Source of the DNA: Phycisphaerales bacterium
GTDB lineage: Bacteria; Planctomycetota; Phycisphaerae; Phycisphaerales; UBA1924
Assembly (NCBI GenBank): GCA_050485765.1
Contig: JBJHBZ010000013.1
Span: 5,272 to 69,271, forward strand
DNA length: 64,000 bases
Direction: 5' to 3'
Of this stretch, positions 9 to 33,662 are shown in pieces. The first letter of the stretch is position 1. Each line of letters starts with the position of its first letter. The notes under the pieces are model-generated. The model saw only the letters and a program-made list of their open reading frames with translations, was not told where the DNA came from and ran no database searches. The translations under genes were made by a program, and so were the position numbers.

Positions 9-1715
9 GTGCACAACGCTCAGGGCCCGGGGGTGCTGGACCTGCCGGAAGGGTCGCAGCGTGCGGTTGTCTGGACGCCCGCCGGTGTGCGCCTGCTGGA
101 CGACCTGGTGGCGAACCCGCAGGGCTGGACGCTGACGCGGGCGGTGGACATCAACGAGGCGGGGATGATCCTGGCCGAGGGTCGGTACGGGACGGGATGC
201 CGCCGGATGGTGCTGCTGGAGCCAGCGGGCGCGGACGCGGACGGCGACGGCGCGATCACCGGCAACGACGTGTTCCAGCACATCCAGGACGTGATCGAGA
301 ACTCGGCGCGAGCCGACGTGACGGGCACGGGCGAGGTGACCCCGGAGGACACGATCGCGTTCTTAATGATGCACGGCGAGCAGGACACGGGCGCCGTGGC
401 GGGCTCGGACCTGCCGTCGATCGATGACGGGTGCGGGACGGTGTGGGCGGTGACCAATGCGATCGGGGTCGCGCCGCGAGTGATCGCGGCACTGACGGAC
501 GGATCGCAGCCGAACGGTGATCAGGCCGATGACATGCGGGGATGCAAGACCTGTGAAGAATACAACCGCACGTACCCGGGCACGTATCACTGGCGCTGCA
601 ATCCGCAATGCTATGGATGCCCGGGCGATGACCCGAACAACCCGCATGCGCCCAACGGGGCTCCCGGATTCCCCGGGAGCGACCCCAACAACCCGCATTC
701 ACCTCATGGAGGCCCGGGCGGTGACGCAGCTCCCGGGAGCAATGGCAACGGTGGCAAGGGGGGAGACGGCGCTCCGGGCACGAAGGCTGATCCGATCATG
801 GATACACCGGCCACAAAAGGCGGTGACGGCGGGGCGGGCGGAAATGGGAGCGGTACTGGTCGCGGTGGGGACGGTGGTAGCGGCGGACAAGGCGGCAACG
901 GCGACCTTGACAGCCCTGGTGCTTCCGGAGGCGACGGAGGCAAAGGGGGAGAAGGAGGCGCAAACGGAGCTGGTGGGAACGGTGGCCGTGGCGGTCCTGG
1001 TGGGGAAGGTGGTGGTACTGCGATCGGCGGAGATGGCGGCAATGGTGGACACGCCGGCGATGGCAATCGGACCGGACGGGGAGGAAATGGCGGCGCAGGC
1101 GGACATGGGATCAACGGCGGCCATGGCGGACACGGTGGTGATGGCGGCAACGGCGGAACCGAAGGCCCCACAAACACACGAGGTAATGGAGGCAACGGAG
1201 GTGACGGCGGAGCTGGTGGGCCGTCCTATGGAAATCATCCAGGAGGTTCGGGCGGTGACGGCGGACACGGTGGAAACGGGCGGTCAGCCGGAGGCGGTGG
1301 AAACGGTGGTCACGGAGGTGGTGCCAACACACATCCCGATGGACAAGGCGGCAGCGGCGGGCAAGGTGGCGATGGAGGTGACGGAACCCAGAATGGCGGA
1401 CGCGGTGGGACCGGCGGAAGAGGTGGCAGCAGCACCGGCAACGGCGGCGATGGGGGTAACGGGGGAGAAGGCGGCCATGGACAGCACACTGGCGGTGACG
1501 GGGGAAATGGCGCGAACGGTGGAAATGGCACCGACTCGGGCGGAGATGGCGGGCATGGCGGACGAGGAGGTGGCGGAAGTGTTCACAGTGGAAACGGCGG
1601 AAATGGGGGGAACGGTGGAACCAGCGGACCAGACGGCCAACCGGGTACCGGCGGCAACGGCGGCCCGAAAGGCAACGGGCCCGGTGGTCAGCCGGGGACA
1701 CCCGGCAGCCCTTGA
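9..1715 (+). CDS. Surface/secreted glycine-rich repeat protein, probably 5'-truncated by the window edge. It has a HAF-like repeat, an Asp-rich Ca-binding-like segment, a Cys/Pro-rich linker and a ~330-aa GGxGGxGG tract.
   Basis: The frame stays open to nt 3. Motifs: [14 protein letters not shown] (HAF-type repeat), [13 protein letters not shown] (EF-hand/dockerin-like), [24 protein letters not shown]. From about nt 720 there are dozens of GG[NDHAS]GG units (PGRS-like). The antisense Pro-rich ORFs mirror this repeat. Confidence 0.6.
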
Positions 1716-1991
1716 ATGATGCCTCGCACATAACCCTGAGAGCATGAAGAACATGAGATCGCACGCTTCGTGACACCACTCGCCCCGGGCCTTGCTCGGG
1801 GCGTTTTCTTTCGTGCCGTCGCTCGCGTGCGGGAACTGTCCGCGACGGGGGGCGGAGAGTGGGCAGGGGGAACGCCGGGCCGACGCCCGGGGCGCGGTTC
1901 GGCTAGGCTTAGAGCCCGGCGAATCGAGCGGGCGGAGGGGTGTGTGTGACGGCTTTCGGCGCGGCCGCCGGGACCGGAGAGGTGCAGACCG

Positions 1992-3149
1992 ATGAGCGTG
2001 AGCAGCGACACCCAGACCGACGCCTCGCACGTGGGGCACGTGGTTCTCCCGGGTGAGAAGAGCCAGGACCCCCACGCGACGCGCTGGGGCAAGTTCCTGC
2101 TGGCGACGATCAAGTTCGAGGCGTCGGACCTGATCATGAAGAGCGACCAGAAGCCGAAGATCCGGCTCAAGGGCTCGCTGAAGCCGCTGGACACCGAGGT
2201 GGTGACGGCTTCGGAGTTCCGGTCGATCGCCGAGCACATCCTGACACCCGAGCAGTTCGACGACCTGCACAAGTTCGGGTCGGTCGACTTCGCGTACGAC
2301 TACGACGACGTGAACCGGTTCCGCGTGAACCTGTTCATGGCCAAGGGCAAGCTGAGCGTGGCGGCGCGGCGGATCACGGCGAACATCATGCCGTTCGAGA
2401 AGCTGCACCTCCCGCCGATCATGGCCGACATCGCGATGCAGCCGCAGGGCATCGTGCTGCTCTGCGGCGTGACGGGCTCTGGTAAGTCGACGACGATCGC
2501 GTCGATGCTCGACTACGTGAACGAGCGGAAGCCCGTCCACATCGTGACGATCGAGGACCCGATCGAGTACGTGTTCACGGACAAGAAGGCGACGATCAAC
2601 CAGCGTGAGATCGGGATCGACTGCCTGGACTTCAAGGTCGCGCTCCGGGCGCTGGTGCGTGAGAACCCGGACATCGTGCTCGTGGGCGAGATGCGGGACA
2701 ACGAGACGTTCGAGGCGGCGCTGCACGCGGCCGAGACGGGGCACCTGGTCTACGGGACGATCCACGCGTCGAGCACGACGCAGACGTTCAGCCGCATTTA
2801 CGGGTTGTTCGAGCAGGAAGAGGTGGAGCAGGTCCGGCGGATCCTGGCGTACCAGATGCGTGCGTTTGTGTATCAGAAGCTGCTGCCGACGCTGCACGAG
2901 AACATCCACCGGATCCCGGCGCTGGAGATCCTGATCAACAACTCGATCGTGTCGAAGTTTGTGCTGGAGGAGCGCGAGGGCGAGCTCCGGGAGTATCTGA
3001 ACACGATCGAGGCTCGCCAGGCTGGGAACAAGGACTTCAACCAGTCGCTGGTGGAGCTTGTGGAGCAGGAGTACATCCATATGCGTGTGGCGTTGGACGC
3101 GTCGCCGAACGTGGACGACCTGCAGATGCGTTTGAAGAAGCTGAAGTGA
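1992..3149 (+). CDS. pilT: Type IV pilus retraction-type ATPase (PilT/PilU family)
   Basis: Walker A GVTGSGKSTT, Asp box VTIEDPIEY, Walker B PDIVLVGEMRD, His box TGHLVYGTIHASS. Length 385 aa. Confidence 0.85.
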   Translation: MSVSSDTQTDASHVGHVVLPGEKSQDPHATRWGKFLLATIKFEASDLIMKSDQKPKIRLKGSLKPLDTEVVTASEFRSIAEHILTPEQFDDLHKFGSVDFAYDYDDVNRFRVNLFMAKGKLSVAARRITANIMPFEKLHLPPIMADIAMQPQGIVLLCGVTGSGKSTTIASMLDYVNERKPVHIVTIEDPIEYVFTDKKATINQREIGIDCLDFKVALRALVRENPDIVLVGEMRDNETFEAALHAAETGHLVYGTIHASSTTQTFSRIYGLFEQEEVEQVRRILAYQMRAFVYQKLLPTLHENIHRIPALEILINNSIVSKFVLEEREGELREYLNTIEARQAGNKDFNQSLVELVEQEYIHMRVALDASPNVDDLQMRLKKLK

Positions 3150-3186
3150 TCGCCGTCGTCGCGCAGGGGCTGCGTGCCTTGGTGTC

Positions 3187-5022
3187 GTGTCGTCGGTTTG
3201 TGAGGCTCGCCGCCAGTGTGGGCGGGCCGGGGGTGCCGAGAACGTGATCGAGCAGACAGTGGCATCGTTGTGGTCGCCCGGGTCCGTCGTCGGTTTTTCG
3301 ACGCTGGCGGCCGAGGGGTACGTGCTGGTCTCGTGGTGGAAGCCGTTCATACTGCTGCTGCCGCTCCTGGTGTGGGGGTACATCGTTTCGACGGTGTACG
3401 ACAAGCACGCGGCCCGCTTCCACCTCCCGCGGGAGCAGTGGAACACGATGCACCTGTGCGTCGGGCTGGCGGGCGTGATCGTGCCGCTGCTGATCCCGAT
3501 CGCCGCCTGGTGGGGCGTGATCGTGGCGCTGGCGGCGCAGGTGGCGATCCTGAGCGTGAGCATCTTCAGCTACCCGCTGGTGGCGAACAAGGACGAGCGC
3601 GTGCCGGAGCGGCACCGCGTCAAGTTCAGCCTGGCCGAGGCGCTGGCGGCGCGCCGGGCCAAGTCGGCGGCTGCCAAGAAAGACGCCCAGACCAGCGAGC
3701 TCGACATCACGGACGCGGACAAGATGCGCCTGCCCCCGCCGGAGCGTGAGACGCCGGAGTTTGACCTCCGCGTCGCGGCCGAGCGCGTGGTGCTGCGGGG
3801 CAAGGAGCTCCGGGCGAGCCAGGTGGATGTCCTCCCGGCGAAGGACGGGTCGTACGTGCCGAGCTACCTGATCGACGGCGTGCGTCAGAACGGCGAGGCG
3901 ATGCCGGCGCAGCAGGCCGTCCCGATCATCGACTTCTGGAAGCGGGTCGCGGGGATGGACACGCAGGAGCGTCGCAAGCGCCAGAGCGGGTCGTTCAAGG
4001 TCCGTCGCGACACGGACACGACCGACGTCTACGCGAGCAGCAGCGGGACGCAGGGCGGCATGCGCCTGACGATGCAGTTCGACCAGGCGAAGGCGGTCCG
4101 AAAGCCGATCGAAGATCTTGGCCTGCTCGATCCGCAGCTCGACGCGGTGCGGGGGCTGGTCGCCGAGCCCGGCGGCGTGGTGCTGCTGGCGGCAACGCCC
4201 GACCAGGGCTCGACGACGACGGTCTACGCGATCACCAAGCTGCACGACGCGTACACGTCCAACGTGCAGACGGTGGAGCCGGAGCGGACCGAGTCGATGC
4301 TCGAGGGCGTGCGTCAGAACGTCATCGACCCGCTGAACCCGGACCAGGACTTCGCGAAGACGGTGCGTTCGATCCTGCGCCGCGACCCGGACGTGGTCTC
4401 GGTCGCGGCCGTGCCGGACGCCGAGACGGCGCGGGAGATCGCCTCGGGCGACCTGGCCCGCTCACGGGTCTACGTCGCGCTCCGGGCGGACTCGGCGCTC
4501 GCGGCGATCCAGCTCTGGGTCAAGAGCGTGGGCGACGCCGAGAAGGCGAGCGCGCACCTCAAGGGCGTGATCGCGCAGCGTCTGGTGCGTCGCCTGTGCG
4601 TCAACTGTCGCCAGCCGTACCAGCCCAGCCCGGACATGCTGAAGAAGCTCGGGTTGCCCGTCGACCGGGTGAAGCAGCTCTTCAAGAAGGGCGGGCAGGT
4701 GATGATCAAGAACAAGCCGGAGATCTGCCCGGTCTGCAACGGCGTGGGGTACATCGGGCAGGCCGGCGCGTTCGAGGTCTTCCCGCTGGGCGACGCCGAG
4801 CGGAAGCTGATCCGCGCGGGCGACCTGAGCGGTCTGAAGGCGGAGCTCCGCAAGCGCCAGCTCCCGACGATCCAGCAGGCGGCGTTGCGCCTGGCGGTCG
4901 AGGGTGTGACGAGCGTGGAAGAGGTCGGGCGTGCGACGGCCCCGCCGGCGCCCTCGGGGGGCGCCTCCCGCGGCAAGCCCCAGCCGCCGCCGATGCCCAA
5001 GGCCGCGACGCCCGCCAACTGA
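3187..5022 (+). CDS. Membrane-anchored GspE/PilB-family protein with degenerate ATPase motifs (predicted pseudo-ATPase)
   Basis: The N-terminus has 3-4 hydrophobic helices (FILLLPLLVWGYIVSTVY; LCVGLAGVIVPLLIPIAAWWGVIVALAAQVAILSVSIF). A GspE N2-like segment is present (YLIDGVRQNG...MDTQERRKRQSGSF). The tetra-Cys motif is retained (CVNCRQPY...CPVCNGVGYIGQAGAFEVF). Walker A is ATPDQGSTTT, Walker B is DPDVVSVAAVPD, and the His box is RSRVYVALRAD. GTG start at 3187; in-frame alternative GTG at 3244. Confidence 0.7.
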   Translation: MSSVCEARRQCGRAGGAENVIEQTVASLWSPGSVVGFSTLAAEGYVLVSWWKPFILLLPLLVWGYIVSTVYDKHAARFHLPREQWNTMHLCVGLAGVIVPLLIPIAAWWGVIVALAAQVAILSVSIFSYPLVANKDERVPERHRVKFSLAEALAARRAKSAAAKKDAQTSELDITDADKMRLPPPERETPEFDLRVAAERVVLRGKELRASQVDVLPAKDGSYVPSYLIDGVRQNGEAMPAQQAVPIIDFWKRVAGMDTQERRKRQSGSFKVRRDTDTTDVYASSSGTQGGMRLTMQFDQAKAVRKPIEDLGLLDPQLDAVRGLVAEPGGVVLLAATPDQGSTTTVYAITKLHDAYTSNVQTVEPERTESMLEGVRQNVIDPLNPDQDFAKTVRSILRRDPDVVSVAAVPDAETAREIASGDLARSRVYVALRADSALAAIQLWVKSVGDAEKASAHLKGVIAQRLVRRLCVNCRQPYQPSPDMLKKLGLPVDRVKQLFKKGGQVMIKNKPEICPVCNGVGYIGQAGAFEVFPLGDAERKLIRAGDLSGLKAELRKRQLPTIQQAALRLAVEGVTSVEEVGRATAPPAPSGGASRGKPQPPPMPKAATPAN

Positions 5023-5100
5023 TTCGATGACACGGGCCCCCGCGGGCGAGCCGCGTGCCCTGCCCGCCCCAACACGGGGCGGCCTGATGGAGACGGACGG

Positions 5101-6891
5101 ATGATCCTGAATCTGATCGTGATCGGCGCGGTGCTGGGCATCGGGTACGTGTGGGTGACCCGGGGCTTTTTCAGTGCGCTGCTGCACCTGATCTGCGTGA
5201 TCATCGGCGGCGCGATCGCGCTGGCGGTGTGGGAGCCGCTGGCGTACCTGATTGTCAACAACGTGCCCGAGAGCGGGTTCTTCACCTTCCTGGAAGGCGT
5301 CGCGTGGGGCGCGGCGTTGATCCTGCCGTTCGCGATCGCGACCGCGCTCCTGCGTCTGGCGGTCGACTCGGCGGTGCCGGCGAACGTCAAGGTGCCGGCG
5401 GTCGCCGATTACGTCGGGGGCGGGGTCTGCGGCGGGATCGCCGCGGTGCTGACCATGGGCATCGTCATCACCGGCGTCGGGCACACGCGGGTCGCGTCGG
5501 AGTTCTTCGGCTACAAGCCGCTGAGCACCACCGTCAGCGGGCTCACGCAGGAATCCAGCCTCTGGCTCCCGGTCGACCGGATCACCGGGGCCGTCTACGG
5601 GCACCTCTCGAGCGGCGTGTTCAGCACGACGCAGCCGCTGAGCACCTGGCACCCGGACTTCGCGACCGCGCCGGCCGCGATGCGCATGAGCCTGGGCGAC
5701 GGGAAAGGCCGCAACGTCATGCCGCCGAGCGCGGTCCGCGTCATCTCGTCGTGGACGCTCGGCAAGGACGACGCGCAGACGACCCTCCGCGACCTGATGC
5801 GGGATGAGTGGAGCCCCGCGACGCAGAACCCGCAGCGCGTCAACGGCGAGCCCTTCAACCCGCAGAGTCATATCGTGGGGTACATGCTCCGCATCGGGCC
5901 GGAGGCGCGGGAGACCCGGGGCAACGTCGTCGTCAGCGAGGGGCAGATCCGCCTGGTGACGCGCAACCGGCGGACGGGCTCGAGCATGGCGGTGCACCCG
6001 ATCGCGGCCGTCAGCCCGGCGGCGGGCGAGACCAACCCGCCCGTCTACGGCCGCTGGCGGTTCGACGGGAACTTCCACCTGACGAGCGTGGGCGGGGCCG
6101 CCGAGACGCTGATGGGCTTCGAGTTCGTGGTGGAGCCGGGGTACGAGCCGATCGGTCTGACGATCAAGAACACGCGGCTCCCGCTGCGCGGGCTCGAGCC
6201 GCTGGCGTTTACGAGCTATCAGGAGCGTGACCGCGCGATCCGGACGGGGGCGTTGCTCGCGGGGGCCGGCGAGGCCGGCGAGTTCGACGCCTCCGAGGCG
6301 AACCGCGTCTCGACCGGGACGCCGGGCGCTGGTGAGCAGGGGAGCGGTGTGGTGGTCGGGCGGACCCTGCCGAACCGCCTGGTGATCCAGCGCGGGACGC
6401 ACCGGAGCCTGGAGATCGACGGGAACGAGATCATCCGCGGCGTGCAGGCGTTCAACCCGAACGAGTTCCAGCGTGCCGCCAGCATCCCGATGAACCTCCA
6501 GATCCGCCAGTTCCGCACCACGCCGGACACGACGCTGGTGCAGGTCGACGTGAGCCTGCGTTCGCGTCAGAGCCTGCTGGGCCAGGCGGCGGCCGCGGCC
6601 GAGCGCGTCGTCCCGCCCGAGCTGATCGACACCAACGGGAACCGGTACCAGGCGATCGGGTACGTCTACCGCGACCAGTCGATCGTGCGCCTGCGGTACA
6701 CGCCGGACCGCCCGATCCGCGGGCTGACCGAGCTCGAGGGCGACGGCGTCGGGCTCAGCCGCTCCGCGGCGGGCCAGGAGCTCACGCTGATCTTCCTGGT
6801 CAGCACCGGCGTCAACGTCGAGCGCTTCGTGATCGGCAACACCGTGATCGCCGAGTACGAGCCGCCGATCGACGCCAGCGGGCGACGCTGA
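5101..6891 (+). CDS. Integral membrane protein with a CvpA-like N-terminal multi-TM region and a large beta-rich C-terminal domain of unknown function
   Basis: N-terminus MILNLIVIGAVLGIGYVWVTRGFFSALLHLICVIIGGAIALAVWEPLAYLIV plus 2-3 more hydrophobic segments. GC3-rich codon usage. Last gene before a strong terminator. Confidence 0.6.
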   Translation: MILNLIVIGAVLGIGYVWVTRGFFSALLHLICVIIGGAIALAVWEPLAYLIVNNVPESGFFTFLEGVAWGAALILPFAIATALLRLAVDSAVPANVKVPAVADYVGGGVCGGIAAVLTMGIVITGVGHTRVASEFFGYKPLSTTVSGLTQESSLWLPVDRITGAVYGHLSSGVFSTTQPLSTWHPDFATAPAAMRMSLGDGKGRNVMPPSAVRVISSWTLGKDDAQTTLRDLMRDEWSPATQNPQRVNGEPFNPQSHIVGYMLRIGPEARETRGNVVVSEGQIRLVTRNRRTGSSMAVHPIAAVSPAAGETNPPVYGRWRFDGNFHLTSVGGAAETLMGFEFVVEPGYEPIGLTIKNTRLPLRGLEPLAFTSYQERDRAIRTGALLAGAGEAGEFDASEANRVSTGTPGAGEQGSGVVVGRTLPNRLVIQRGTHRSLEIDGNEIIRGVQAFNPNEFQRAASIPMNLQIRQFRTTPDTTLVQVDVSLRSRQSLLGQAAAAAERVVPPELIDTNGNRYQAIGYVYRDQSIVRLRYTPDRPIRGLTELEGDGVGLSRSAAGQELTLIFLVSTGVNVERFVIGNTVIAEYEPPIDASGRR

Positions 6892-6931: not shown

Positions 6932-6964
6932 AAAAACGGGCGGCCCCGCGGGGTCGCCCGTTTT
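6932..6964. terminator. Bidirectional intrinsic terminator between convergent genes 5101..6891 and rplI
   Basis: GAAAAACGGGCGGCCCCGCGGGGTCGCCCGTTTTGTG: a GC-rich hairpin of about 11-12 bp with an A-tract on one side and a T-tract on the other. Confidence 0.7.
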
Positions 6965-6993
6965 GTGTCATGCTTTGAACCAACACCCGGGAT

Positions 6994-7620
6994 TCAGAGC
7001 TCGTCTTCCGGACGGCTGCGGGCGGCCGGGGCCTGCGGCGCGCCGGCGGCTGCGGGCTCGGCGCCGGCTTCGGCGTTCCGGTCGCGACCGCGACGGCGCG
7101 ACTTGTCGACCAGGTTGCCCTCGTTGTCGAACTCCATCTCCTCCCGCTCGTCCTCCTGGAGCGTGCGGTCGGGGACGACGTGGATCTTGACCGTGCCCTC
7201 GAGGTCGTTGGCGAACTTCACCGTGACCTCGTACGCGTCGATCCGCTTGATGCTCCCCGGGAGGCGGACCTCGCGCGGGCGGACGGGGAAGCCGAGCTGG
7301 GTCAGCGCCTCGGCGATGTCGTTCTGCGTGACGCCGCCGTAGAGGATGCCCTGGTCGTTGCAGGCGCGCTGCATCGTGACGTCGAGCCCGTCGATCTTCT
7401 GGATTGCCTCTTCGCGCTTCTTGCGGAGAGCGGCGACTTCCTTCTCGGCGTCGGCCCGCTTGGCGGCGAGGCTCTGGATCAGGTCATCGCTCGGCTTGGT
7501 CGCCATCCCACGCGGGAGCAGGAAGTTGCGGGCGTAGCCCAGGCGGACGTTGACCACGTCGCCCACGATGCCGAGGTTGTCGACGTTCTCGGTCAGCAGC
7601 AGCTTGACGTTCTTGCGCAC
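6994..7620 (-). CDS. rplI: 50S ribosomal protein L9 with an acidic/Ala-rich C-terminal extension
   Basis: N-terminus VKLLLTENVDNLGIVGDVVNVRLGYARNFLLPRGMA matches the L9 signature. Confidence 0.9.
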   Translation of the reverse strand: MRKNVKLLLTENVDNLGIVGDVVNVRLGYARNFLLPRGMATKPSDDLIQSLAAKRADAEKEVAALRKKREEAIQKIDGLDVTMQRACNDQGILYGGVTQNDIAEALTQLGFPVRPREVRLPGSIKRIDAYEVTVKFANDLEGTVKIHVVPDRTLQEDEREEMEFDNEGNLVDKSRRRGRDRNAEAGAEPAAAGAPQAPAARSRPEDEL

Positions 7621-28972: not shown

Positions 28973-31774
28973 TTACGGCCTGCCGTCGCGGGCCGCCTCG
29001 GCGAGCTTTCGCAGCTCGTCGAACGCCTGCATCGGGGTGATCTCGTCGAGCTTGAGCTCGCGGAGACGATCAATCGCGGGGTGCTGGAGGAACTCGGTGA
29101 ACAGGCCGAGCTGGTCGGGCTCGCGTCGCTTGGTGCGTGCGGCGGGTGCGGGCACGGGCGGAGGATGGTCGGCGCCGGCGTGCTGGTGGTGGACGGCGAG
29201 CGCATCGAGGACTTGCTTGGCGCGGTCGGTGACGCTCCGCGGCACGCCGGCGAGTCGGGCGACGTGGATGCCGTAGGACTGGTCGGTCCGCCCGGGCAGG
29301 ATGCGGTGGAGGAAGACGATCTCGCTGTGCGCGCCGTCGGGGTCGTGCTCGTCGGCGGCGCGGTCGACCTCGCGCACGGCGACGTGCAGGTTGCGCACGC
29401 GCCCGGGCAAGCGTTCTTCGAGCTCGGTCAGCTCGTGGTAGTGGGTCGCGAAGAGCGTCCGCGGCGGGTCGTCTCGGTCGGCGAGGTGCTCGGCGATCGC
29501 CCAGGCGAGGCTGAGCCCGTCGAGCGTGCTGGTGCCGCGCCCGATCTCGTCGAGCACGATGATCGAGCGCCCGGTCGCGTGGTTCAGGATGTTGGCGGTC
29601 TCGGTCATCTCGACCATGAAGGTCGACTGCCCGCGGTGCAGGGCGTCGTCGGCCCCGACGCGCGTGAAGACACGATCGGTCAGCCCGACCACCGCGTGGT
29701 CCGCGGGCACGAAGCTCCCCGCGTGCGCGAGAAGCACGAGCAGCGCCGTCTGACGGATGTACGTGCTCTTGCCGGCCATGTTGGGCCCGGTGATCAGCGC
29801 GACCGGGGCCTCGGGCGCGCCGTGCTCGTCGCTCGCGCCGAGCTCGGTGTCGTTGGGGACGAAGTTGTGCGCGAGCTTCTCGTCCAGCACGGGGTGGCGC
29901 CCGGCGCGGATGCGCAGCACCGGCTCGGCGACGACCTCGGGGCGCACCCACCCGCGCTTGGCGGCTTTGGTCGCGAGCGCGCCCAGCGCGTCGAGCTCCG
30001 CGGCGACCTCGCCGAAGTCCGTTGCCGGGCGCAGCTGCGCGCGCACGAGCTCGCACAGCTCGTCGAAGATCGCGCGCTCGCGCACCAAGGCCCGCTCGGT
30101 TGCGGTGGAGACCTTGTCTTCAAAGAGCTTGAGCTCGGGGGTGATGTACCGTTCGGCGTTTTTGAGCGTCTGCTTGCGGGTGAATGCCGCGGGGGCGCGC
30201 CGGGCCTGGGCCGCGGGGAGCTCGATGTAGTAGCCGAAGACTTTGTTGTACCCGACCTTGAGCGAGGGCAGGTCGTGCTCGGCGTGGAGGCGGGCCTGAT
30301 AGTCGGCGAGCCACTGCCCGGCGTCGCGCTCGAGGGCGCGGGCCTCGTCAAGCTCCGGGTCGACGCCGTCGCGGACGAAGCCGCCGTCGCGCAGGTGGGC
30401 CGGCGGGTGGTCGGCGCAGGTGTCGGTGATGCGGGCGGCAAGGGGCGCGACGGTCTCGCGCACCGCTTCCAGCCGCTCGGCGTGCGTGCGCAGCGCGGGG
30501 GCGTCGCGGACGATCTTGAGCAAGGGCTCGACCCTGGCGAGGCTCGAGCCGAACGCCGCCAGGTCGCGCGGGCCCGCGCGGCCGAGCGCCAGGCGTGCCG
30601 CCAAGCGGGGCACGTCCTGCACGCCCGACAGCGCCTCGCTCAGCTCCTGCGCGGTCCTTCGGTCTTCGACCAGCGTCGCGACGGCGCCTTGGCGTGCGTG
30701 GATCGCTTCCACCGTCCCGAGCGGGCGCACGAGCCACTCGCGCAGGAGGCGCTTGCCCATCGGCGTGCGGCACAGCCCCGGCGCGAGAAACAGGCTCAGC
30801 AGCGACCCCTCGCGATCGCCCTCACCCCCCGCGCGGTCCCCGGCACGGATCGTCCGCTCGACTTCCAGGCTGCGAAGGCTGATCGCGTCAATCACACACG
30901 AGCCCGCGGCGGCGGCGCGGCGCGGGGGCGCGAGGTGGCTGAGCGTCACGCGCGGGAGCTCGACCGTCGCGTCGCCGACGGCGTCGGGGTTGGCGGCGTG
31001 GTCGAGGGAGACCGTCTGCGTTTCCTTGAGATAGCGGAGCGCGGCGCCGAGCGGGGCGATGCACCCGTCCTCGTCGCTCATCCCGAAGCCGGCGAGCGTG
31101 CGCACGCCGTACTGCTCACGGATCGCCTCCATCGCCTCGGCGGGGCGGAACTGCCAGCTCGGGCGCGGGGTGGCGCTCACGCCCAGACGCTCGACGAGCT
31201 CGCTGACCCAGCCCGGCCTGGCACCGTCGGCGGGCTCCGGGTAGAGCAACTCGCTCGCGCCACGCCGGGCGAGCTCGTCGGCGAGCGAGACCGGGCCGGC
31301 GGAGGCGAGCTCGCCGATCGAGACCGAGCCCGAGGCGAGCTCGACGCACGCCAGCGCGTGCCCCACACCGCCCGAGCCGAGCGGGCAGACTGCGACGATC
31401 GCGCTGGTCGCGTCGTCGGGCAGGAGCGCGTCGTCGGCGAGCGTGCCCTGGGTGACGACGCGCGTCACGGCCCGGGCGACCACGCCCTTGGCGTCCTTGG
31501 GGTCCTGCACCTGGTCGGCGACGGCGACGCGGTACCCGGCCGCGAGCGCGCGCCGGAGGTAGGTCTCGAGCTGGTGATACGGCGCGCCGGCCATCGCCAG
31601 GTCGTTCTGGCGTTTGGTGAGGGTGAGCCCGAGGACGCGGGAGGCGGTCTTGGCGTCCTCGCCGAAGAGCTCGTAGAAGTCGCCCATACGGAAGAACAGC
31701 AGCGCGTCGGGGTGCCTCGCCTTGAACGCGAAGTACTGGCGCATCGCCGGGGTTTGTTTCGGGTCGCCCGCCAT
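28973..31774 (-). CDS. mutS: DNA mismatch repair protein MutS
   Basis: TPAMRQYFAFKARHPDALLFFRMGDFYELFGEDA and ITGPNMAGKSTYIRQ. Start at MAGDPKQ (31774); the ORF-track N-terminal extension is Arg/Ser-rich junk. Confidence 0.9.
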   Translation of the reverse strand: MAGDPKQTPAMRQYFAFKARHPDALLFFRMGDFYELFGEDAKTASRVLGLTLTKRQNDLAMAGAPYHQLETYLRRALAAGYRVAVADQVQDPKDAKGVVARAVTRVVTQGTLADDALLPDDATSAIVAVCPLGSGGVGHALACVELASGSVSIGELASAGPVSLADELARRGASELLYPEPADGARPGWVSELVERLGVSATPRPSWQFRPAEAMEAIREQYGVRTLAGFGMSDEDGCIAPLGAALRYLKETQTVSLDHAANPDAVGDATVELPRVTLSHLAPPRRAAAAGSCVIDAISLRSLEVERTIRAGDRAGGEGDREGSLLSLFLAPGLCRTPMGKRLLREWLVRPLGTVEAIHARQGAVATLVEDRRTAQELSEALSGVQDVPRLAARLALGRAGPRDLAAFGSSLARVEPLLKIVRDAPALRTHAERLEAVRETVAPLAARITDTCADHPPAHLRDGGFVRDGVDPELDEARALERDAGQWLADYQARLHAEHDLPSLKVGYNKVFGYYIELPAAQARRAPAAFTRKQTLKNAERYITPELKLFEDKVSTATERALVRERAIFDELCELVRAQLRPATDFGEVAAELDALGALATKAAKRGWVRPEVVAEPVLRIRAGRHPVLDEKLAHNFVPNDTELGASDEHGAPEAPVALITGPNMAGKSTYIRQTALLVLLAHAGSFVPADHAVVGLTDRVFTRVGADDALHRGQSTFMVEMTETANILNHATGRSIIVLDEIGRGTSTLDGLSLAWAIAEHLADRDDPPRTLFATHYHELTELEERLPGRVRNLHVAVREVDRAADEHDPDGAHSEIVFLHRILPGRTDQSYGIHVARLAGVPRSVTDRAKQVLDALAVHHQHAGADHPPPVPAPAARTKRREPDQLGLFTEFLQHPAIDRLRELKLDEITPMQAFDELRKLAEAARDGRP

Positions 31775-31862
31775 GGAGGCGCGAGCATAGGACGACGGGC
31801 GCGGCCGAGCGTTGGAGCCCGGCCGCGCCCGCCCGAGGACGCTTGCACGTGTCGACCGGGCC

Positions 31863-33662
31863 TCAGGCGGCCCGGGAGGGTCGGTCGTCTCGGTCCAGCA
31901 ACACCCGGCAGGTTTCCAGGAGCGCGGGCACGTCGATCGGCTTCGCGCCGTACTCGTTGCACCCCGCCTCCAGGCAGCGCAGGCGGTCTTCCTGCATCGC
32001 GTTGGCGGTGAGCGCGAAGATGGGGCCTTGCCAGCCGGCCTCTCGGAGCTCACGGGCCGCGGCGTAGCCGTCCAGCTCCGGCATCTGCATGTCGAGGATG
32101 ACCAGGTCGTAGCCCTCACGGCTCGCATGGGCCGCCAGGACACGGTCGACGGCCTGTCGCCCGTTGGTCGCCTCGTCGACCCGGAAGCCCGCCTTGCGGA
32201 GGTGGTGCCCGATGAGGCGTCGGTTGTCCTCGCCGTCGTCGGCCAGGAGCACGCGAGCGCCCATGGGCGATGCATGGTCGATGGGCGTGTCGCTCTCCGC
32301 CGGGCCCGTGTCTTCGAACTCGCCCGCGGCGAGCGGGGCCGCGATGCGGACGGTGAAGCGGCTGCCTCGCCCCGGTGTGCTGGTGACCGTCAGCGAGCCA
32401 CCCAGGAGTTCGGCGAGGTTACGGCTGATCGAGAGGCCGAGCCCCGTGCCACCGAAGCGACGCGTGGTCGTCGAGTCGGCCTGGCGGAACGGCTCGAAGA
32501 CCGCGTCGAGCCGGTCGGATTGGATCCCGATCCCGGTGTCTTCGACCTCGGCGATCAGCACCGGCTCCGGGGACGCCTCGTAGCGGGCTCGGATCACGAT
32601 CGATCCGGACTCGGTGAACTTCACCGCGTTGCCGACGAGGTTGGTCAGGATCTGGCGCACCCGCGTGGGGTCGGTCATGACGGCGGCGGGGAGCGACGCG
32701 TCGGGCTCGACGCGCAGCTCCAGGCCCTTGCTCTCGGCCCGGTGCCGAAGCATGCTGTCCACGTCTTCAAGCAGACGACGCGGGCTCGACGCGCGGTGCT
32801 CGATCTCGATCCGGTTCGCCTCGATCTTGGACAGGTCCAGGATGTCGTTGATCACCTCGATCAGGTGCTCGCCGTTGCGGCAGATCGTCTCGGCGTGCTC
32901 GGCGCATTCGGCCTCGCTCTGATCCCCCGAACGCAGCAGCTCGGCAAAGCCCAGGATCGCCGTCATCGGCGTCCGGATCTCGTGGCTCATCCCCGCGATG
33001 AAGTCGCTCTTGGCGCGGTTCGCGGCCTCGGCGGCCGCCTTCGCTTCCTCGAGCTCGCCCGTCCGCACCGCGACCAGGCGCTCCAGCTCGGCCTTCTCCC
33101 GCGACAGGCTCTCGGCCAGCTCACGCTCCAGACGCTTGGCGCGGAGGCTCACCGCGAACCCGTCCAGGTTGAACGCGAATTTCCAGGACCAGATGTTCAG
33201 CAGGACCAGGAAAACCGCCAGCAAGCGGTAGGCCGGCCAGATGAACATCACGATCGACATCGCGTACCCGCAGACCGCGCACCACAAAAAGACCTGCGCC
33301 AGGTCGTACATCTTGGTGTTGCGATCCGGAGGGGCCTCGGCGTAGTACGCGCGGCGCCAGAAGAGCACGATCTTCGCGTACGCTCCGATCACCCCCAGCG
33401 TAGCGACCACCAGCAGCGTCACCCAAGGCCAGTCCGTGCCGCCCTCGGCGGTCACGATGCAATGGGTCCGCGGCAGGTAGTTGCCGAAGTTGGTGAACAC
33501 GTCGAAGTCGCGCAAGCTCAGCCCGCCCGGCCCGGGGCCACCCACCGCCGTCGTCGCGGACATGGAAGCCGGGGCACACACACCGGTTTCCACGCCCGCG
33601 ACGGGCGGGACACCGGTGATCGGCACACCGGATTCGGGAGTCGAGCGACCGACGGATGACAT
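31863..33662 (-). CDS. Hybrid sensor histidine kinase / response regulator
   Basis: TM segments, H-box FIAGMSHEIRTPMTAILGF, N/G boxes (NLVGNAVKFT, DTGIGI, GGTGLGLSI) and a C-terminal receiver (VLLADDGEDNRRL...DLVILDMQMPELDG...ALTANA). Confidence 0.85.
   Translation of the reverse strand: MSSVGRSTPESGVPITGVPPVAGVETGVCAPASMSATTAVGGPGPGGLSLRDFDVFTNFGNYLPRTHCIVTAEGGTDWPWVTLLVVATLGVIGAYAKIVLFWRRAYYAEAPPDRNTKMYDLAQVFLWCAVCGYAMSIVMFIWPAYRLLAVFLVLLNIWSWKFAFNLDGFAVSLRAKRLERELAESLSREKAELERLVAVRTGELEEAKAAAEAANRAKSDFIAGMSHEIRTPMTAILGFAELLRSGDQSEAECAEHAETICRNGEHLIEVINDILDLSKIEANRIEIEHRASSPRRLLEDVDSMLRHRAESKGLELRVEPDASLPAAVMTDPTRVRQILTNLVGNAVKFTESGSIVIRARYEASPEPVLIAEVEDTGIGIQSDRLDAVFEPFRQADSTTTRRFGGTGLGLSISRNLAELLGGSLTVTSTPGRGSRFTVRIAAPLAAGEFEDTGPAESDTPIDHASPMGARVLLADDGEDNRRLIGHHLRKAGFRVDEATNGRQAVDRVLAAHASREGYDLVILDMQMPELDGYAAARELREAGWQGPIFALTANAMQEDRLRCLEAGCNEYGAKPIDVPALLETCRVLLDRDDRPSRAA

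What the first reader, a model, noticed from the sequence alone, without database searches (positions are those of the whole stretch)
1992..6891. Orphan three-gene module: active PilT-type ATPase, dead membrane-anchored GspE/PilB homologue and CvpA-like membrane protein
The three co-directional genes are separated by 37 and 78 nt and are closed by a strong bidirectional terminator (6932..6964). They pair a fully intact PilT-like motor with a paralogue-like partner that keeps the secretion-ATPase fold but cannot hydrolyse ATP by motif criteria. The third gene encodes a polytopic membrane protein with a large extracytoplasmic-looking beta-rich domain. No pilin, prepilin peptidase, PilC/GspF platform, PilM-Q or secretin gene lies nearby. 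The upstream neighbour is a glycine-rich surface protein. This does not match a canonical T4P, T2SS, Tad or competence locus. I infer that the anchored pseudo-ATPase could act as a stator or docking platform, replacing GspL/PilM-type anchors, for the PilT-like hexamer.
Basis: partly seen in the sequence, partly recalled or inferred. Interest (0 to 1): 0.75.

Follow-up and report, generated by a model that had tools for sequence, protein, structure and literature searches.

The report
Planctomycete PilT, dead anchored ATPase, CvpA operon
A three-gene operon conserved across Planctomycetota pairs a working PilT-type motor with a membrane-anchored PilB/GspE-type ATPase that has lost its catalytic residues and a CvpA-family membrane protein, with no pilus genes nearby, and I found no description of this module in the literature I searched.

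Summary
Three co-directional genes lie between two terminator hairpins: P1 (1992-3149), P2 (3187/3244/3259-5022) and P3 (5101-6891).

- **P1** is a PilT/PilU-family ATPase with every catalytic box intact.
- **P2** has three N-terminal transmembrane helices where GspE/PilB carry their N-terminal docking domain. It keeps a PilB/GspE core with the zinc site, but has lost the Walker A Lys, the Walker B Glu and the His-box histidines.
- **P3** is a CvpA-like four-helix membrane protein. Its roughly 460-residue beta-rich, probably periplasmic, domain has no relative in the PDB.

The module is conserved. In Phycisphaerales genomes P3 follows P2 in 76 of 76 loci and P1 directly precedes P2 in 64 of 72. 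No pilus or T2SS genes appear in about 1.2 Mb of flanks, in the rest of the window, or in the 10 kb upstream in a 99.6%-identical strain.

The same triad occurs in Sedimentisphaerales and other Planctomycetota. Some lineages keep fully intact P2 motifs together with a short CvpA. The dead P2 is therefore a decayed second motor, not merely an anchor.

Best reading, unproven: one inner-membrane complex in which P1 is the only motor, P2 is a non-catalytic anchored adaptor and P3 is the periplasmic output. The physiological role is unknown. I class it as a new variant of a known kind; interest is moderately high.

The parts
1781..1803 (+). Terminator-like hairpin closing the upstream Gly-rich gene; marks the 5' boundary of the conserved operon block.
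   Evidence: Hairpin with 10 pairs, 9 of them G-C, followed by a T run. The 99.6% identity to strain L175 begins at window position 1775.
1992..3149 (+). P1: PilT/PilU-family hexameric ATPase, 385 aa, with all catalytic motifs intact. Walker A at 2466-2492, Asp box at 2547-2570, Walker B at 2670-2699, His box at 2736-2771. The PilT AIRNLIRE motif is not conserved (IVSKFVLEE, 2946-2972).
   Evidence: TIGR01420 at 370.7 bits, above the 319.1 cutoff. Best PDB match is Aquifex PilT 2gsz at 1e-77. Motif coordinates, alignment. Median 78.5% identity across Phycisphaerales. dN/dS 0.05-0.07.
3187..5022 (+). P2: membrane-anchored PilB/GspE-family pseudo-ATPase. 611 aa from the first GTG; the probable true start is GTG 3244 or GTG 3259, giving 592 or 587 aa.
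   Evidence: PF00437 at 8e-38. The GspE model aligns from position 114 to 486 only, and all GspE/PilB NCBIfam scores are far below their cutoffs. AF2 pLDDT 89. The soluble core matches PilF/PilB/GspE with target-normalised TM-score up to 0.86. dN/dS 0.21-0.25.
3340..3609 (+). P2 N-terminal anchor: three TM helices (3340-3399, 3448-3498, 3508-3582) with conserved cytoplasmic motifs DKHAARFHL (3400-3426) and NKDERVPE (3586-3609). Predicted topology is N-terminus out, C-terminus in.
   Evidence: Hydropathy, AF2 helices and the positive-inside count on 59 homologues. These are invariant or nearly invariant columns in alignment A2. No Pfam family covers this region.
4189..4491 (+). Degenerate catalytic boxes of P2. 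Walker A reads AATPDQGSTT (4189-4218, Lys replaced by Ser). Asp box reads TVEPERTE (4270-4293). Walker B reads DVVSVAAVPD (4390-4419, Gly-Glu replaced by Ala-Ala). His box reads SRVYVALRAD (4462-4491, no His).
   Evidence: Residue-by-residue alignment to GspE 4pht and 4kss. Family column counts: no Lys at the Walker A position in 121 sequences, and Lys in only 4 of 112 anchored cluster representatives.
4597..4737 (+). Retained tetracysteine zinc-binding motif of the PilB/GspE type: CVNC at 4597-4608 and CPVC at 4726-4737.
   Evidence: All four cysteines are invariant in A2.
5101..6891 (+). P3: CvpA-like four-helix membrane domain (aa 2-127, 5104-5481) followed by a roughly 460-aa beta-rich, probably periplasmic, domain (5482-6888).
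   Evidence: AF2 pLDDT 94.2 and pTM 0.90. PF02674 at 16.5 bits, below its cutoff, but several homologues pass and NCBI names them CvpA family. The A1 profile hits a bona fide CvpA partner at 5e-18. Charge distribution fits an N-out, C-out topology. No PDB relative by fold or by sequence profile. dN/dS 0.23-0.38.
6932..6968 (.). Bidirectional intrinsic terminator between P3 and the convergent rplI gene (6994-7620, minus strand).
   Evidence: G+C-rich hairpin flanked by an A run and a T run, detected on both strands.

Best explanation
The three genes are one operon encoding an inner-membrane machine specific to Planctomycetota, built from type IV filament-type ATPases.

**Proposed arrangement in this genome and in Phycisphaerae generally.**
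- P1, a PilT/PilU-family hexamer, is the only subunit able to hydrolyse ATP.
- P2 is a former PilB/GspE-like motor. It is held in the membrane by its own three TM helices instead of through a GspL/PilM-type partner.
- P2 has lost catalysis but keeps its fold, zinc site and a conserved, altered nucleotide pocket. It now serves as a non-catalytic anchored ring or adaptor.
- P2 positions P1 at the membrane and couples it, through membrane-embedded and juxtamembrane contacts, to P3.
- P3 is a CvpA-family four-TM protein whose large domain faces the periplasm and is the output of the machine.

**Shown.** The domain identities, motif states, topology predictions, operon structure, selective constraint and conservation of the triad, and the absence of pilus genes in the sequence examined around it.

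**Inferred.** That the three proteins form a physical complex, that P1 docks on P2, and that force or conformational change reaches the periplasm through P3.

**Unknown.** The physiological output. My best guess is an envelope or surface process run from this module, not a fragment of a standard pilus or T2SS locus.
For: **Operon and selection.**
- Terminators bracket the three genes.
- In divergent relatives the genes overlap or abut: L085, L093 and L095.
- dN/dS is well below 1 for all three genes.

**Conservation.**
- In Phycisphaerales P3 directly follows P2 in 76/76 loci, and P1 directly precedes P2 in 64/72.
- The triad is also present in a Sedimentisphaerales genome (L089) and in two further lineages of unknown placement (L085, L090), where the flanking genes differ.
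- The triad with an intact P2 occurs in L093, L095, L098 and L101. A P2-CvpA pair occurs in a Schlesneria-like planctomycete.

**P2 as a decayed, still functional protein.**
- The Walker A Lys is absent throughout the clade, yet pocket residues such as G317, E340, R238/R239 and RRDPD are invariant.
- The N-terminal docking domain of GspE/PilB is replaced by a conserved TM anchor carrying invariant cytoplasmic motifs.

**No pilus context.** Flanks of 83 related loci (1.24 Mb) hold one pilin-like gene and almost no further secretion ATPases. The 10 kb upstream in a 99.6%-identical strain has none.

**Precedent.** An ATPase-dead PilT still supports PilU-driven pilus retraction (PMC6821130).
Against: - No interaction, structure of the complex or phenotype is available. 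Multimer prediction could not be run.
- P3 has only tiny cytoplasmic loops, so any coupling would have to pass through TM-TM contacts, which is untested.
- One dead-P2 lineage (L092) and three Phycisphaerales loci have no PilT gene within 8 kb. P1 adjacency is therefore not obligatory.
- An ancestral pair of PilB-like and PilT-like motors is what one expects for a filament that extends and retracts. That favours a link to pilins encoded elsewhere.
- A canonical GspE/PilB gene lies 2 kb downstream of the triad in L085.
- I could not inventory whole genomes for PilC, PilQ, pilins or the prepilin peptidase.
Confidence: 0.5

Rival explanations
1. The triad is an accessory module of a conventional type IV pilus or T2SS whose pilins, PilC/GspF platform, PilM-Q and secretin are encoded elsewhere in the genome. 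P1 would be the ordinary retraction ATPase. P2 and P3 would recruit or regulate it at that machine, for example by competing with the real PilB for the platform.
For: - P1 passes the PilT/PilU family threshold.
- Ancestral triads have both a PilB-like and a PilT-like active motor, the classical extension and retraction pair.
- A canonical GspE/PilB gene lies 2 kb downstream in L085.
- Genes with a prepilin-type N-terminal methylation motif lie within a few kb in L090, L092 and L101, the last also a DUF1559 protein.
- A preprint states that Planctomycetes have type IV pili (bioRxiv 10.1101/817700). From my own knowledge, gene scattering is common in this phylum.
Against: - P2 lacks the N-terminal domain that tethers PilB/GspE to PilM/GspL, and carries its own anchor instead.
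- The constant partner across the phylum is a CvpA-like protein, not PilC.
- No pilus or T2SS core gene family was found in the window, in 1.24 Mb of relatives' flanks or upstream in the sister strain.
- The PilT AIRNLIRE motif is not conserved in P1.
Confidence: 0.3
2. P2 is not a passive scaffold. It still binds nucleotide or another ligand in its altered pocket and acts as a regulatory or sensing subunit, or it retains weak non-canonical catalysis. The machine would then have two functional nucleotide sites, as in the F1 alpha/beta arrangement.
For: - In most Phycisphaerales the Walker A Lys is replaced conservatively by Arg (107 of 121), and the Walker B acidic residue is kept (Glu 94, Asp 23).
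- Pocket residues G317, T319, E340 and the N2E arginines R238/R239 are invariant or nearly so.
Against: - In this window and its closest relatives even the Arg is Ser and the Walker B Glu is Ala.
- Across the wider clade the Lys position is Leu, Val, Gln, Met or Ile, and the Glu position is highly variable.
- The His-box histidines are absent throughout.
- Pfam T2SSE scores drop from 355-415 bits in intact forms to 123-158 bits in degenerate forms.
Confidence: 0.12
3. The three genes are neighbours without a shared function. The synteny would merely reflect a stable housekeeping region that also holds a sigma-70 gene, sodA and ribosomal protein genes.
For: In Phycisphaerales the whole block sodA-sigma70-triad-rplI-ssb-rpsF-pth is syntenic.
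Against: - The triad, or the P2-P3 pair, persists in lineages where all flanking genes differ: L085, L087, L089, L090, L093-L095, L098 and L101.
- The genes often overlap.
- In this window the unit is bounded by its own terminators.
Confidence: 0.03

Closest known systems
Type IVa pilus motor set PilB / PilT / PilC (often encoded as pilB-pilT-pilC)
   Same: It combines a PilB-type and a PilT-type secretion-superfamily ATPase with a polytopic inner-membrane protein in one operon. P1 is a PilT/PilU family member. The P2 core superposes on PilB/PilF with target-normalised TM-score up to 0.86.
   Different: - The membrane partner is a CvpA-like four-TM protein, not PilC.
- P2 has its own three-TM anchor instead of the N-terminal PilM-binding domains.
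- P2 is catalytically dead in this clade.
- No pilin, peptidase, PilM-Q or secretin genes are linked.
PilT-PilU dependency in Vibrio cholerae and Acinetobacter baylyi (PMC6821130, PMC6762196)
   Same: A catalytically inactive hexameric ATPase (Walker-mutant PilT) still supports the work of a second, active paralogue (PilU). This is the logic proposed here for dead P2 and active P1.
   Different: - There the dead ring is an engineered mutant of a PilT-type protein, and both rings are soluble.
- Here the dead protein is natural, PilB/GspE-type, membrane-anchored and fixed over a whole bacterial class.
- Interaction between P1 and P2 has not been shown.
T2SS GspE-GspL module (e.g. PDB 4pht)
   Same: The closest sequence match for the P2 core is GspE, including the zinc motif. 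In both cases the ATPase must be held at the inner membrane.
   Different: - GspE is tethered through its N1E domain to the bitopic protein GspL. P2 lacks N1E and is tethered covalently by TM helices.
- The TIGR02533 score is 170, against a cutoff of 630.
- The Walker A Lys is missing.
CvpA (E. coli colicin V production protein; Pfam PF02674)
   Same: It shares the four-pass inner-membrane N-terminal domain with a variable C-terminal part predicted to be periplasmic (bioRxiv 10.1101/2020.09.25.314492). Partner genes of P2 in other Planctomycetota pass the PF02674 threshold.
   Different: - P3 itself scores below the threshold.
- P3 carries a roughly 460-aa beta-rich domain with no PDB relative.
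- No association of CvpA with secretion-type ATPases turned up in the literature I searched.
DotB docking on the Dot/Icm inner-membrane ATPase complex; FtsEX / MacB-type mechanotransmission (from my own knowledge, not tested here)
   Same: These are precedents for two steps of the model. One is a PilT-like ring docking on another membrane-associated ATPase assembly. The other is cytoplasmic ATP hydrolysis being transmitted through TM helices to a periplasmic domain.
   Different: The protein families are unrelated apart from DotB. These are analogies only.

Membership tests
PilT/PilU family type IVa pilus ATPase (TIGR01420) - P1 | Whole-protein score above the curated NCBIfam cutoff | tested here: met
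   370.7 bits against a cutoff of 319.1, covering model positions 6-341 of 343.
PilT/PilU family type IVa pilus ATPase - P1 | Intact Walker A, Asp box, Walker B and His box | tested here: met
   GVTGSGKST, TIEDPIEY, DIVLVGEMRD and TGHLVYGTIHAS, aligned to Aquifex PilT.
Bona fide PilT (retraction ATPase) - P1 | C-terminal AIRNLIRE motif (defining feature taken from my own knowledge of PilT literature) | tested here: not met
   The aligned stretch reads IVSKFVLEE in the window, where Aquifex PilT reads AIRNLIRE.
Bona fide PilT (retraction ATPase) - P1 | Works with a type IVa pilus machine (PilB, PilC, PilM-Q, pilins) in the same genome | not testable with these tools
   None are linked within the window or within 8-10 kb in relatives. 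Whole-genome content could not be queried.
T2SS ATPase GspE (TIGR02533) - P2 | Score above the curated cutoff, with the N1E domain present | tested here: not met
   170.3 bits against a cutoff of 630.25. The alignment starts at model position 114, so N1E is absent and is replaced by TM helices.
Type IV pilus assembly ATPase PilB (TIGR02538) - P2 | Score above the curated cutoff, with the N-terminal GSPII/MshEN-type domains present | tested here: not met
   144.6 bits against a cutoff of 675.65. The alignment starts at model position 197.
Secretion-superfamily ATPase, catalytically competent - P2 | Walker A Lys, Walker B Glu and His-box histidines | tested here: not met
   The Lys is Ser, Gly-Glu is Ala-Ala and the histidines are Arg. 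No Lys is found in 121 family members.
PilB/GspE structural class - P2 | N2E plus CTE fold with the tetracysteine zinc motif | tested here: met
   Foldseek matches PilF/PilB/GspE at E=2e-33 with target-normalised TM-score up to 0.86. CVNC and CPVC are invariant.
Tad/Flp ATPase TadA (the name some databases give to P2 homologues) - P2 | Match to TadA-type models | tested here: not met
   No TadA model is among the NCBIfam hits of P2. The best hits are GspE, TfpB and PilB. The 'TadA' names are automatic annotations.
CvpA / Colicin_V family (PF02674) - P3 | Score above the Pfam gathering threshold | tested here: inconclusive
   P3 scores 16.5 bits against 29.3. Several orthologues carry precomputed PF02674 hits. 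Partner proteins in L095 (47.8 bits) and L093 (32.2 bits) pass. The P3 family profile hits the L087 CvpA at 5e-18.
CvpA / Colicin_V family - P3 | Four-pass inner-membrane topology with a periplasmic, variable C-terminal part | tested here: met
   Four helices at residues 2-127 in the AF2 model. Loop charges fit N-out, C-out. The topology expectation comes from bioRxiv 10.1101/2020.09.25.314492. This is prediction only.
Canonical T4P / T2SS / Tad / competence locus | Linked platform protein (PilC/GspF/TadBC), pilins and prepilin peptidase | tested here: not met
   None are present in the window ORFs scanned, in L001, L003 or L175, or in 83 loci scanned for extra ATPases and for the prepilin motif.
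Known anti-phage defence systems (PADLOC) | Match to a defence-system protein model | tested here: not met
   P1 gives only generic P-loop hits, and P2 and P3 give none.

The most novel reading that the evidence does not exclude
The triad is an autonomous inner-membrane machine that needs neither pilins nor a PilC-type platform. In it, type IV filament-type ATPases drive a CvpA-family protein. This would give the enigmatic, widespread CvpA family its first mechanistic partner. It would also provide a natural case of a motor ring turned into a non-catalytic stator for a paralogous motor, and possibly a role in envelope growth or division in Phycisphaerae (FtsZ-less, from my own knowledge). The only support for that last idea is that PBP2-type and MurD genes sit next to the triad in L089 and L090.
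Probability: 0.3. Interest if true: 0.85.

Novelty: new variant of a known kind. Interest (0 to 1): 0.68.

Why it matters
- **A new architecture for a well-studied ATPase family.** Secretion-superfamily ATPases are studied almost entirely as soluble rings that dock on PilC/GspF-type platforms through PilM/GspL-type tethers. Here a whole phylum carries a PilB/GspE-type ATPase with its own membrane anchor, constantly paired with a CvpA-family protein.
- **A natural comparison of active and dead forms.** In one class this ATPase has lost catalysis, while a PilT-type paralogue in the same operon stays under very strong constraint. That allows a direct test of how a dead ring can serve an active one.
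- **A route to CvpA function.** It gives a testable handle on CvpA, whose role has been unknown since its naming.
- **A candidate envelope machine in Planctomycetota.** Their cell biology is unusual and poorly understood.
- **An annotation correction.** Current database names for these proteins (TadA, PilB, GspE) are misleading.

Tried and rejected
- **'Just the end of a pilus locus'.** Rejected. The upstream 10 kb in a 99.6%-identical strain and in relatives holds sigma70, sodA, an esterase and similar genes. The downstream side holds ribosomal protein genes.
- **'The PilT gene joins only where the anchored ATPase is dead'.** I proposed this after finding L087. Rejected, because L093, L095, L098 and L101 have an intact P2 with a PilT-like gene directly upstream, and L092 has a dead P2 without PilT.
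- **Fold search of the P3 model against the PDB.** Nothing found; the best hit had E=8e-3 and TM-score 0.09. The sequence profile against the PDB also found nothing.
- **Second P3 profile search in the large protein collection.** It added no new distant members.
- **Metagenome scan with a broad 26-sequence alignment.** It failed because no stretch was conserved enough. Only about five of the 80 loci were anchored relatives.
- **Literature searches.** Searches for this module, for CvpA with PilT or Planctomycetes, and for a GspE pseudo-ATPase found nothing relevant.
- **PADLOC.** No defence-system match.
- **Pfam for the P2 anchor.** No family covers it.
- **Not possible with these tools.** Multimer structure prediction, and whole-genome inventories of pilus genes.

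Full report
**1. The observation.**

The window is about 69% G+C. The ORFs 1992-3149 (P1, 385 aa), 3187-5022 (P2, 611 aa from the first GTG) and 5101-6891 (P3, 596 aa) are on the + strand. All three have the composition of real genes, with GC3 of 0.94-0.96.

The stated gaps of 37 and 78 nt are right for the longest ORFs. Database gene calls and homologue N-termini point to a P2 start at GTG 3244 or GTG 3259, which gives a first gap of 94-109 nt.

A G+C-rich hairpin flanked by an A run and a T run sits at about 6932-6968 and is detected on both strands. It lies between P3 and the convergent rplI gene. A second terminator-like hairpin at 1781-1803 closes the upstream gene. The three genes therefore look like one bounded transcription unit.

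**2. The three proteins.**

*P1.* It exceeds the curated PilT/PilU threshold (TIGR01420, 370.7 bits against 319.1). It aligns end to end with Aquifex and Geobacter PilT (1e-77 and 1.5e-73). Walker A, Asp box, Walker B and His box are all intact. The AIRNLIRE stretch of PilT is not conserved; it reads IVSKFVLEE.

*P2.* It matches PF00437 (8e-38), but it aligns to the GspE model only from position 114 and to the PilB model only from position 197. All scores are far below the equivalog cutoffs.
- Aligned to GspE structures, GPTGSGKST reads ATPDQGSTT, VGEIRD reads VAAVPD and both His-box histidines are Arg. The CxxC...CxxC zinc motif is kept.
- Its AF2 model (pLDDT 89) shows TM helices at residues 27-53, 58-77 and 85-109, then a linker helix, then the N2E and CTE domains.
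- The soluble part superposes on PilF, PilB and GspE with target-normalised TM-score up to 0.86.
- Loop charges across 59 homologues fit an N-out, C-in topology.
- No Pfam model covers the anchor.

*P3.* It has four TM helices at residues 2-127 and a beta-rich domain of about 460 residues. The model is very confident (pLDDT 94, pTM 0.90).
- It has no PDB relative by fold or by sequence profile.
- Its own Colicin_V score is below threshold (16.5 against 29.3 bits).
- Several orthologues do carry PF02674 hits, and NCBI names them CvpA family.
- The P3 family profile hits genuine CvpA partner genes in other lineages.
[quoted passage not shown] The loop charges of P3 fit that topology.

**3. Conservation.**

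P2 has hundreds of full-length homologues at 50-58% identity, all named Phycisphaerales or Phycisphaerae where named at all. A scan of species-representative genomes found relatives in 268 genomes.

In the 82 non-redundant related loci retrieved by then (78 non-redundant loci from that scan plus four earlier ones):
- P3 directly follows P2 in 76 of the 76 loci with enough sequence downstream.
- P1 directly precedes P2 in 64 of 72. Four more loci have an insert of 0.8-6 kb. In one locus (L024) the ORF at the P1 position is split. Three have no PilT-like gene within 8 kb.

Median identity to the window is 78.5% for P1, 52% for P2 and 37% for P3. For comparison it is 75.6% for the neighbouring sigma-70 gene and 64% for ribosomal protein L9. 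Against the two closest relatives, dN/dS is 0.05-0.07 for P1, 0.21-0.25 for P2 and 0.23-0.38 for P3. The dead ATPase is therefore a maintained protein, not a pseudogene.

**4. Is it the edge of a pilus locus?**

No.
- In relatives the upstream genes are sodA and a sigma-70-family gene. The downstream genes are rplI, ssb, rpsF, pth, rplY, prs and a glmU-like gene, as in the window.
- A 99.6%-identical strain (L175) shows 10 kb upstream of P1: BatA/VWA, an alkaline phosphatase, an unknown gene, an esterase, sodA and sigma-70.
- Pfam scans of about 34 further window ORFs found only housekeeping families.
- In 1.24 Mb of flanks from 83 loci there is one prepilin-type N-terminus. Only one locus (L021) has an extra secretion-ATPase gene, a second PilT paralogue 38% identical to P1.

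**5. The wider family changes the story.**

An exhaustive profile search over 1.84 billion cluster representatives shows that the anchored family is large. Among the best 150 hits, 108 are anchored proteins of about 550-600 aa without the Walker A lysine. That position holds Leu, Arg, Val, Gln, Met or Ile, and the Walker B Glu position is equally variable. Four anchored proteins keep the lysine. The names available are all Planctomycetota: Phycisphaerae, Sedimentisphaerales and Schlesneria.

| Locus | Lineage | P2 motifs | PilT-like gene upstream | Downstream partner |
|---|---|---|---|---|
| L085 | most divergent P3, 26% identity | decayed (Walker B Gly-Glu kept) | yes, genes overlap | P3-like, 532 aa |
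| L089 | Sedimentisphaerales | dead | yes | P3-like, 589 aa |
| L090 | unnamed | dead | yes | P3-like, 713 aa |
| L092 | Phycisphaerae | dead | none within 8 kb | P3-like, 429 aa |
| L093 | unnamed | all intact | yes | CvpA, 390 aa |
| L095 | unnamed | all intact | yes | CvpA, 411 aa |
| L098 | Planctomycetota by neighbouring genes | all intact | yes | CvpA, 243 aa |
| L101 | Planctomycetota by neighbouring genes | all intact | yes | CvpA, 194 aa |
| L094 | unnamed | Walker A Lys kept, rest decayed | yes | CvpA, 191 aa |
| L087, L088 | Schlesneria-like (Planctomycetia) | all intact | none | CvpA, 244 aa |

The family profile aligns into the TM region of the intact proteins, so the anchors are homologous. 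The intact forms score 355-415 bits on the Pfam T2SSE model and the degenerate forms score 123-158 bits.

The most economical history is as follows. An ancestral planctomycete operon encoded a PilT-like ATPase, a self-anchored PilB-like ATPase and a CvpA-type membrane protein. In Phycisphaerae the anchored ATPase lost catalysis, and the periplasmic part of the CvpA-like partner grew from 191-411 aa to 429-713 aa. The number of lineages is small and they are not independent, so the association between these two changes is only suggestive.

**6. Mechanism.**

*Shown:* identities, motif states, predicted topologies, operon structure, selective constraint and co-inheritance.

*Inferred:* the three proteins form one inner-membrane complex. 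The N-terminal domain through which GspE and PilB are tethered to GspL and PilM is replaced in P2 by a covalent anchor. The cytoplasmic loops of that anchor (DKHAARFHL, NKDERVPE) are nearly invariant. They are candidate contact sites for P1, or for the small conserved cytoplasmic loops of P3 (RGFF and R85/D89/N95).

With P2 unable to hydrolyse ATP in this genome, the only motor is P1. The proposal is that a dead P2 ring positions P1 and couples it to P3, whose large domain faces the periplasm.

There is a precedent for a dead ring serving an active paralogue. PilU retracts pili only when PilT is present, even if that PilT carries Walker A or Walker B mutations (PMC6821130).

The altered P2 pocket is itself conserved: GRTT in most Phycisphaerales, with an invariant Gly, Asp-box Glu and N2E arginines. 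Ligand binding by P2 therefore cannot be excluded. In this window's subclade, however, even the Arg and the Walker B Glu are gone.

**7. The main rival.**

The main rival is that this is a dispersed accessory of a conventional pilus or T2SS.

*For it:*
- The ancestral pairing of a PilB-like and a PilT-like motor.
- A canonical GspE/PilB gene 2 kb downstream in L085.
- Genes with prepilin-type N-termini nearby in L090, L092 and L101.
- Planctomycetes are reported to have type IV pili (bioRxiv 10.1101/817700).

*Against it:*
- P2 has lost the docking domain.
- The constant partner is CvpA-like, not PilC.
- Linked pilus genes are absent.

I could not inventory whole genomes, so this rival keeps substantial weight. 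I give it 0.3, against 0.5 for the complex model.

**8. Comparison and novelty.**

By family, P1 is a PilT/PilU member. P2 is a PilB/GspE-class protein that fails every equivalog test and the catalytic test. P3 is a remote CvpA-family member with a new extracytoplasmic domain.

The module does not meet the definition of a T4P, T2SS, Tad or competence locus, and it matches no PADLOC defence system. I found no description of a self-anchored PilB/GspE family, or of a link between CvpA and secretion ATPases, in the literature searched. That search does not cover most subscription journals.

I rate it a new variant of a known kind: type IV filament-type ATPases in a new architecture with a new partner. 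It has a real chance of being an autonomous machine of a new type.

Noticed in passing
window 9-1715 (+), breakpoint near 1775: The Gly-rich ORF upstream of P1 gives a weak GC-type dockerin hit and is a variable insertion. A 99.6%-identical strain (L175) has the sigma-70 gene directly upstream of P1 instead, and identity begins at window position 1775, right at the terminator hairpin. The 89%-identity relative L005 carries a homologous piece between sigma-70 and P1.
   Followed up: partly
proteins P0288, P0290, P0294, P0302, P0307 and others: Proteins of about 1000 aa, with two GspE-like ATPase stretches and no TM helices predicted in the N-terminal 170-250 residues checked, rank among the best matches to the P2 profile. 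The aligned stretch has intact Walker motifs. They may be tandem double-ATPase relatives of this family.
   Followed up: no
L085 6968-8152: In the most divergent triad-bearing contig, a canonical GspE/PilB gene with an intact Walker A and an N-terminal GSPII-type domain lies about 2 kb downstream of P3. A 440-aa protein of unknown family sits between them, and the contig ends inside the gene.
   Followed up: partly
L089 11720-13870; L090 12105-13391: Peptidoglycan-synthesis genes directly follow the triad in two non-Phycisphaerales lineages: a PBP2/FtsI-type transpeptidase in L089 and MurD in L090. This is a possible hint of an envelope or division link, but it may be coincidence.
   Followed up: no
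L089, L094, L098, L101, upstream of the PilT-like gene: A hisF-type (His_biosynth) gene lies directly upstream of the triad in four otherwise different lineages.
   Followed up: no
L024 2194-3694; L021 7164-8435: In L024 the P1 position holds two overlapping partial PilT-like ORFs with low scores, which is either a frameshift or a pseudogene. In L021 a second PilT-family paralogue, 38% identical to P1, lies 2.6 kb downstream of P3.
   Followed up: partly
L018 (RHKP01000026.1), L064 (QWIH01000058.1): Two assemblies titled 'Cyanobacteria bacterium CYA' and 'Leptolyngbya sp. PLA1' carry the P2-P3 pair (L018 also P1) at the usual 50-52% identity. These contigs or bins are probably planctomycete, through co-culture, mis-binning or naming.
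   Followed up: no
window 28973-32275 (-) and 31863-33662 (-): The longest ORFs of the MutS gene and of the neighbouring hybrid histidine kinase overlap by about 400 nt. The MutS domains start at residue 175, so the first-start rule probably over-extends MutS.
   Followed up: no
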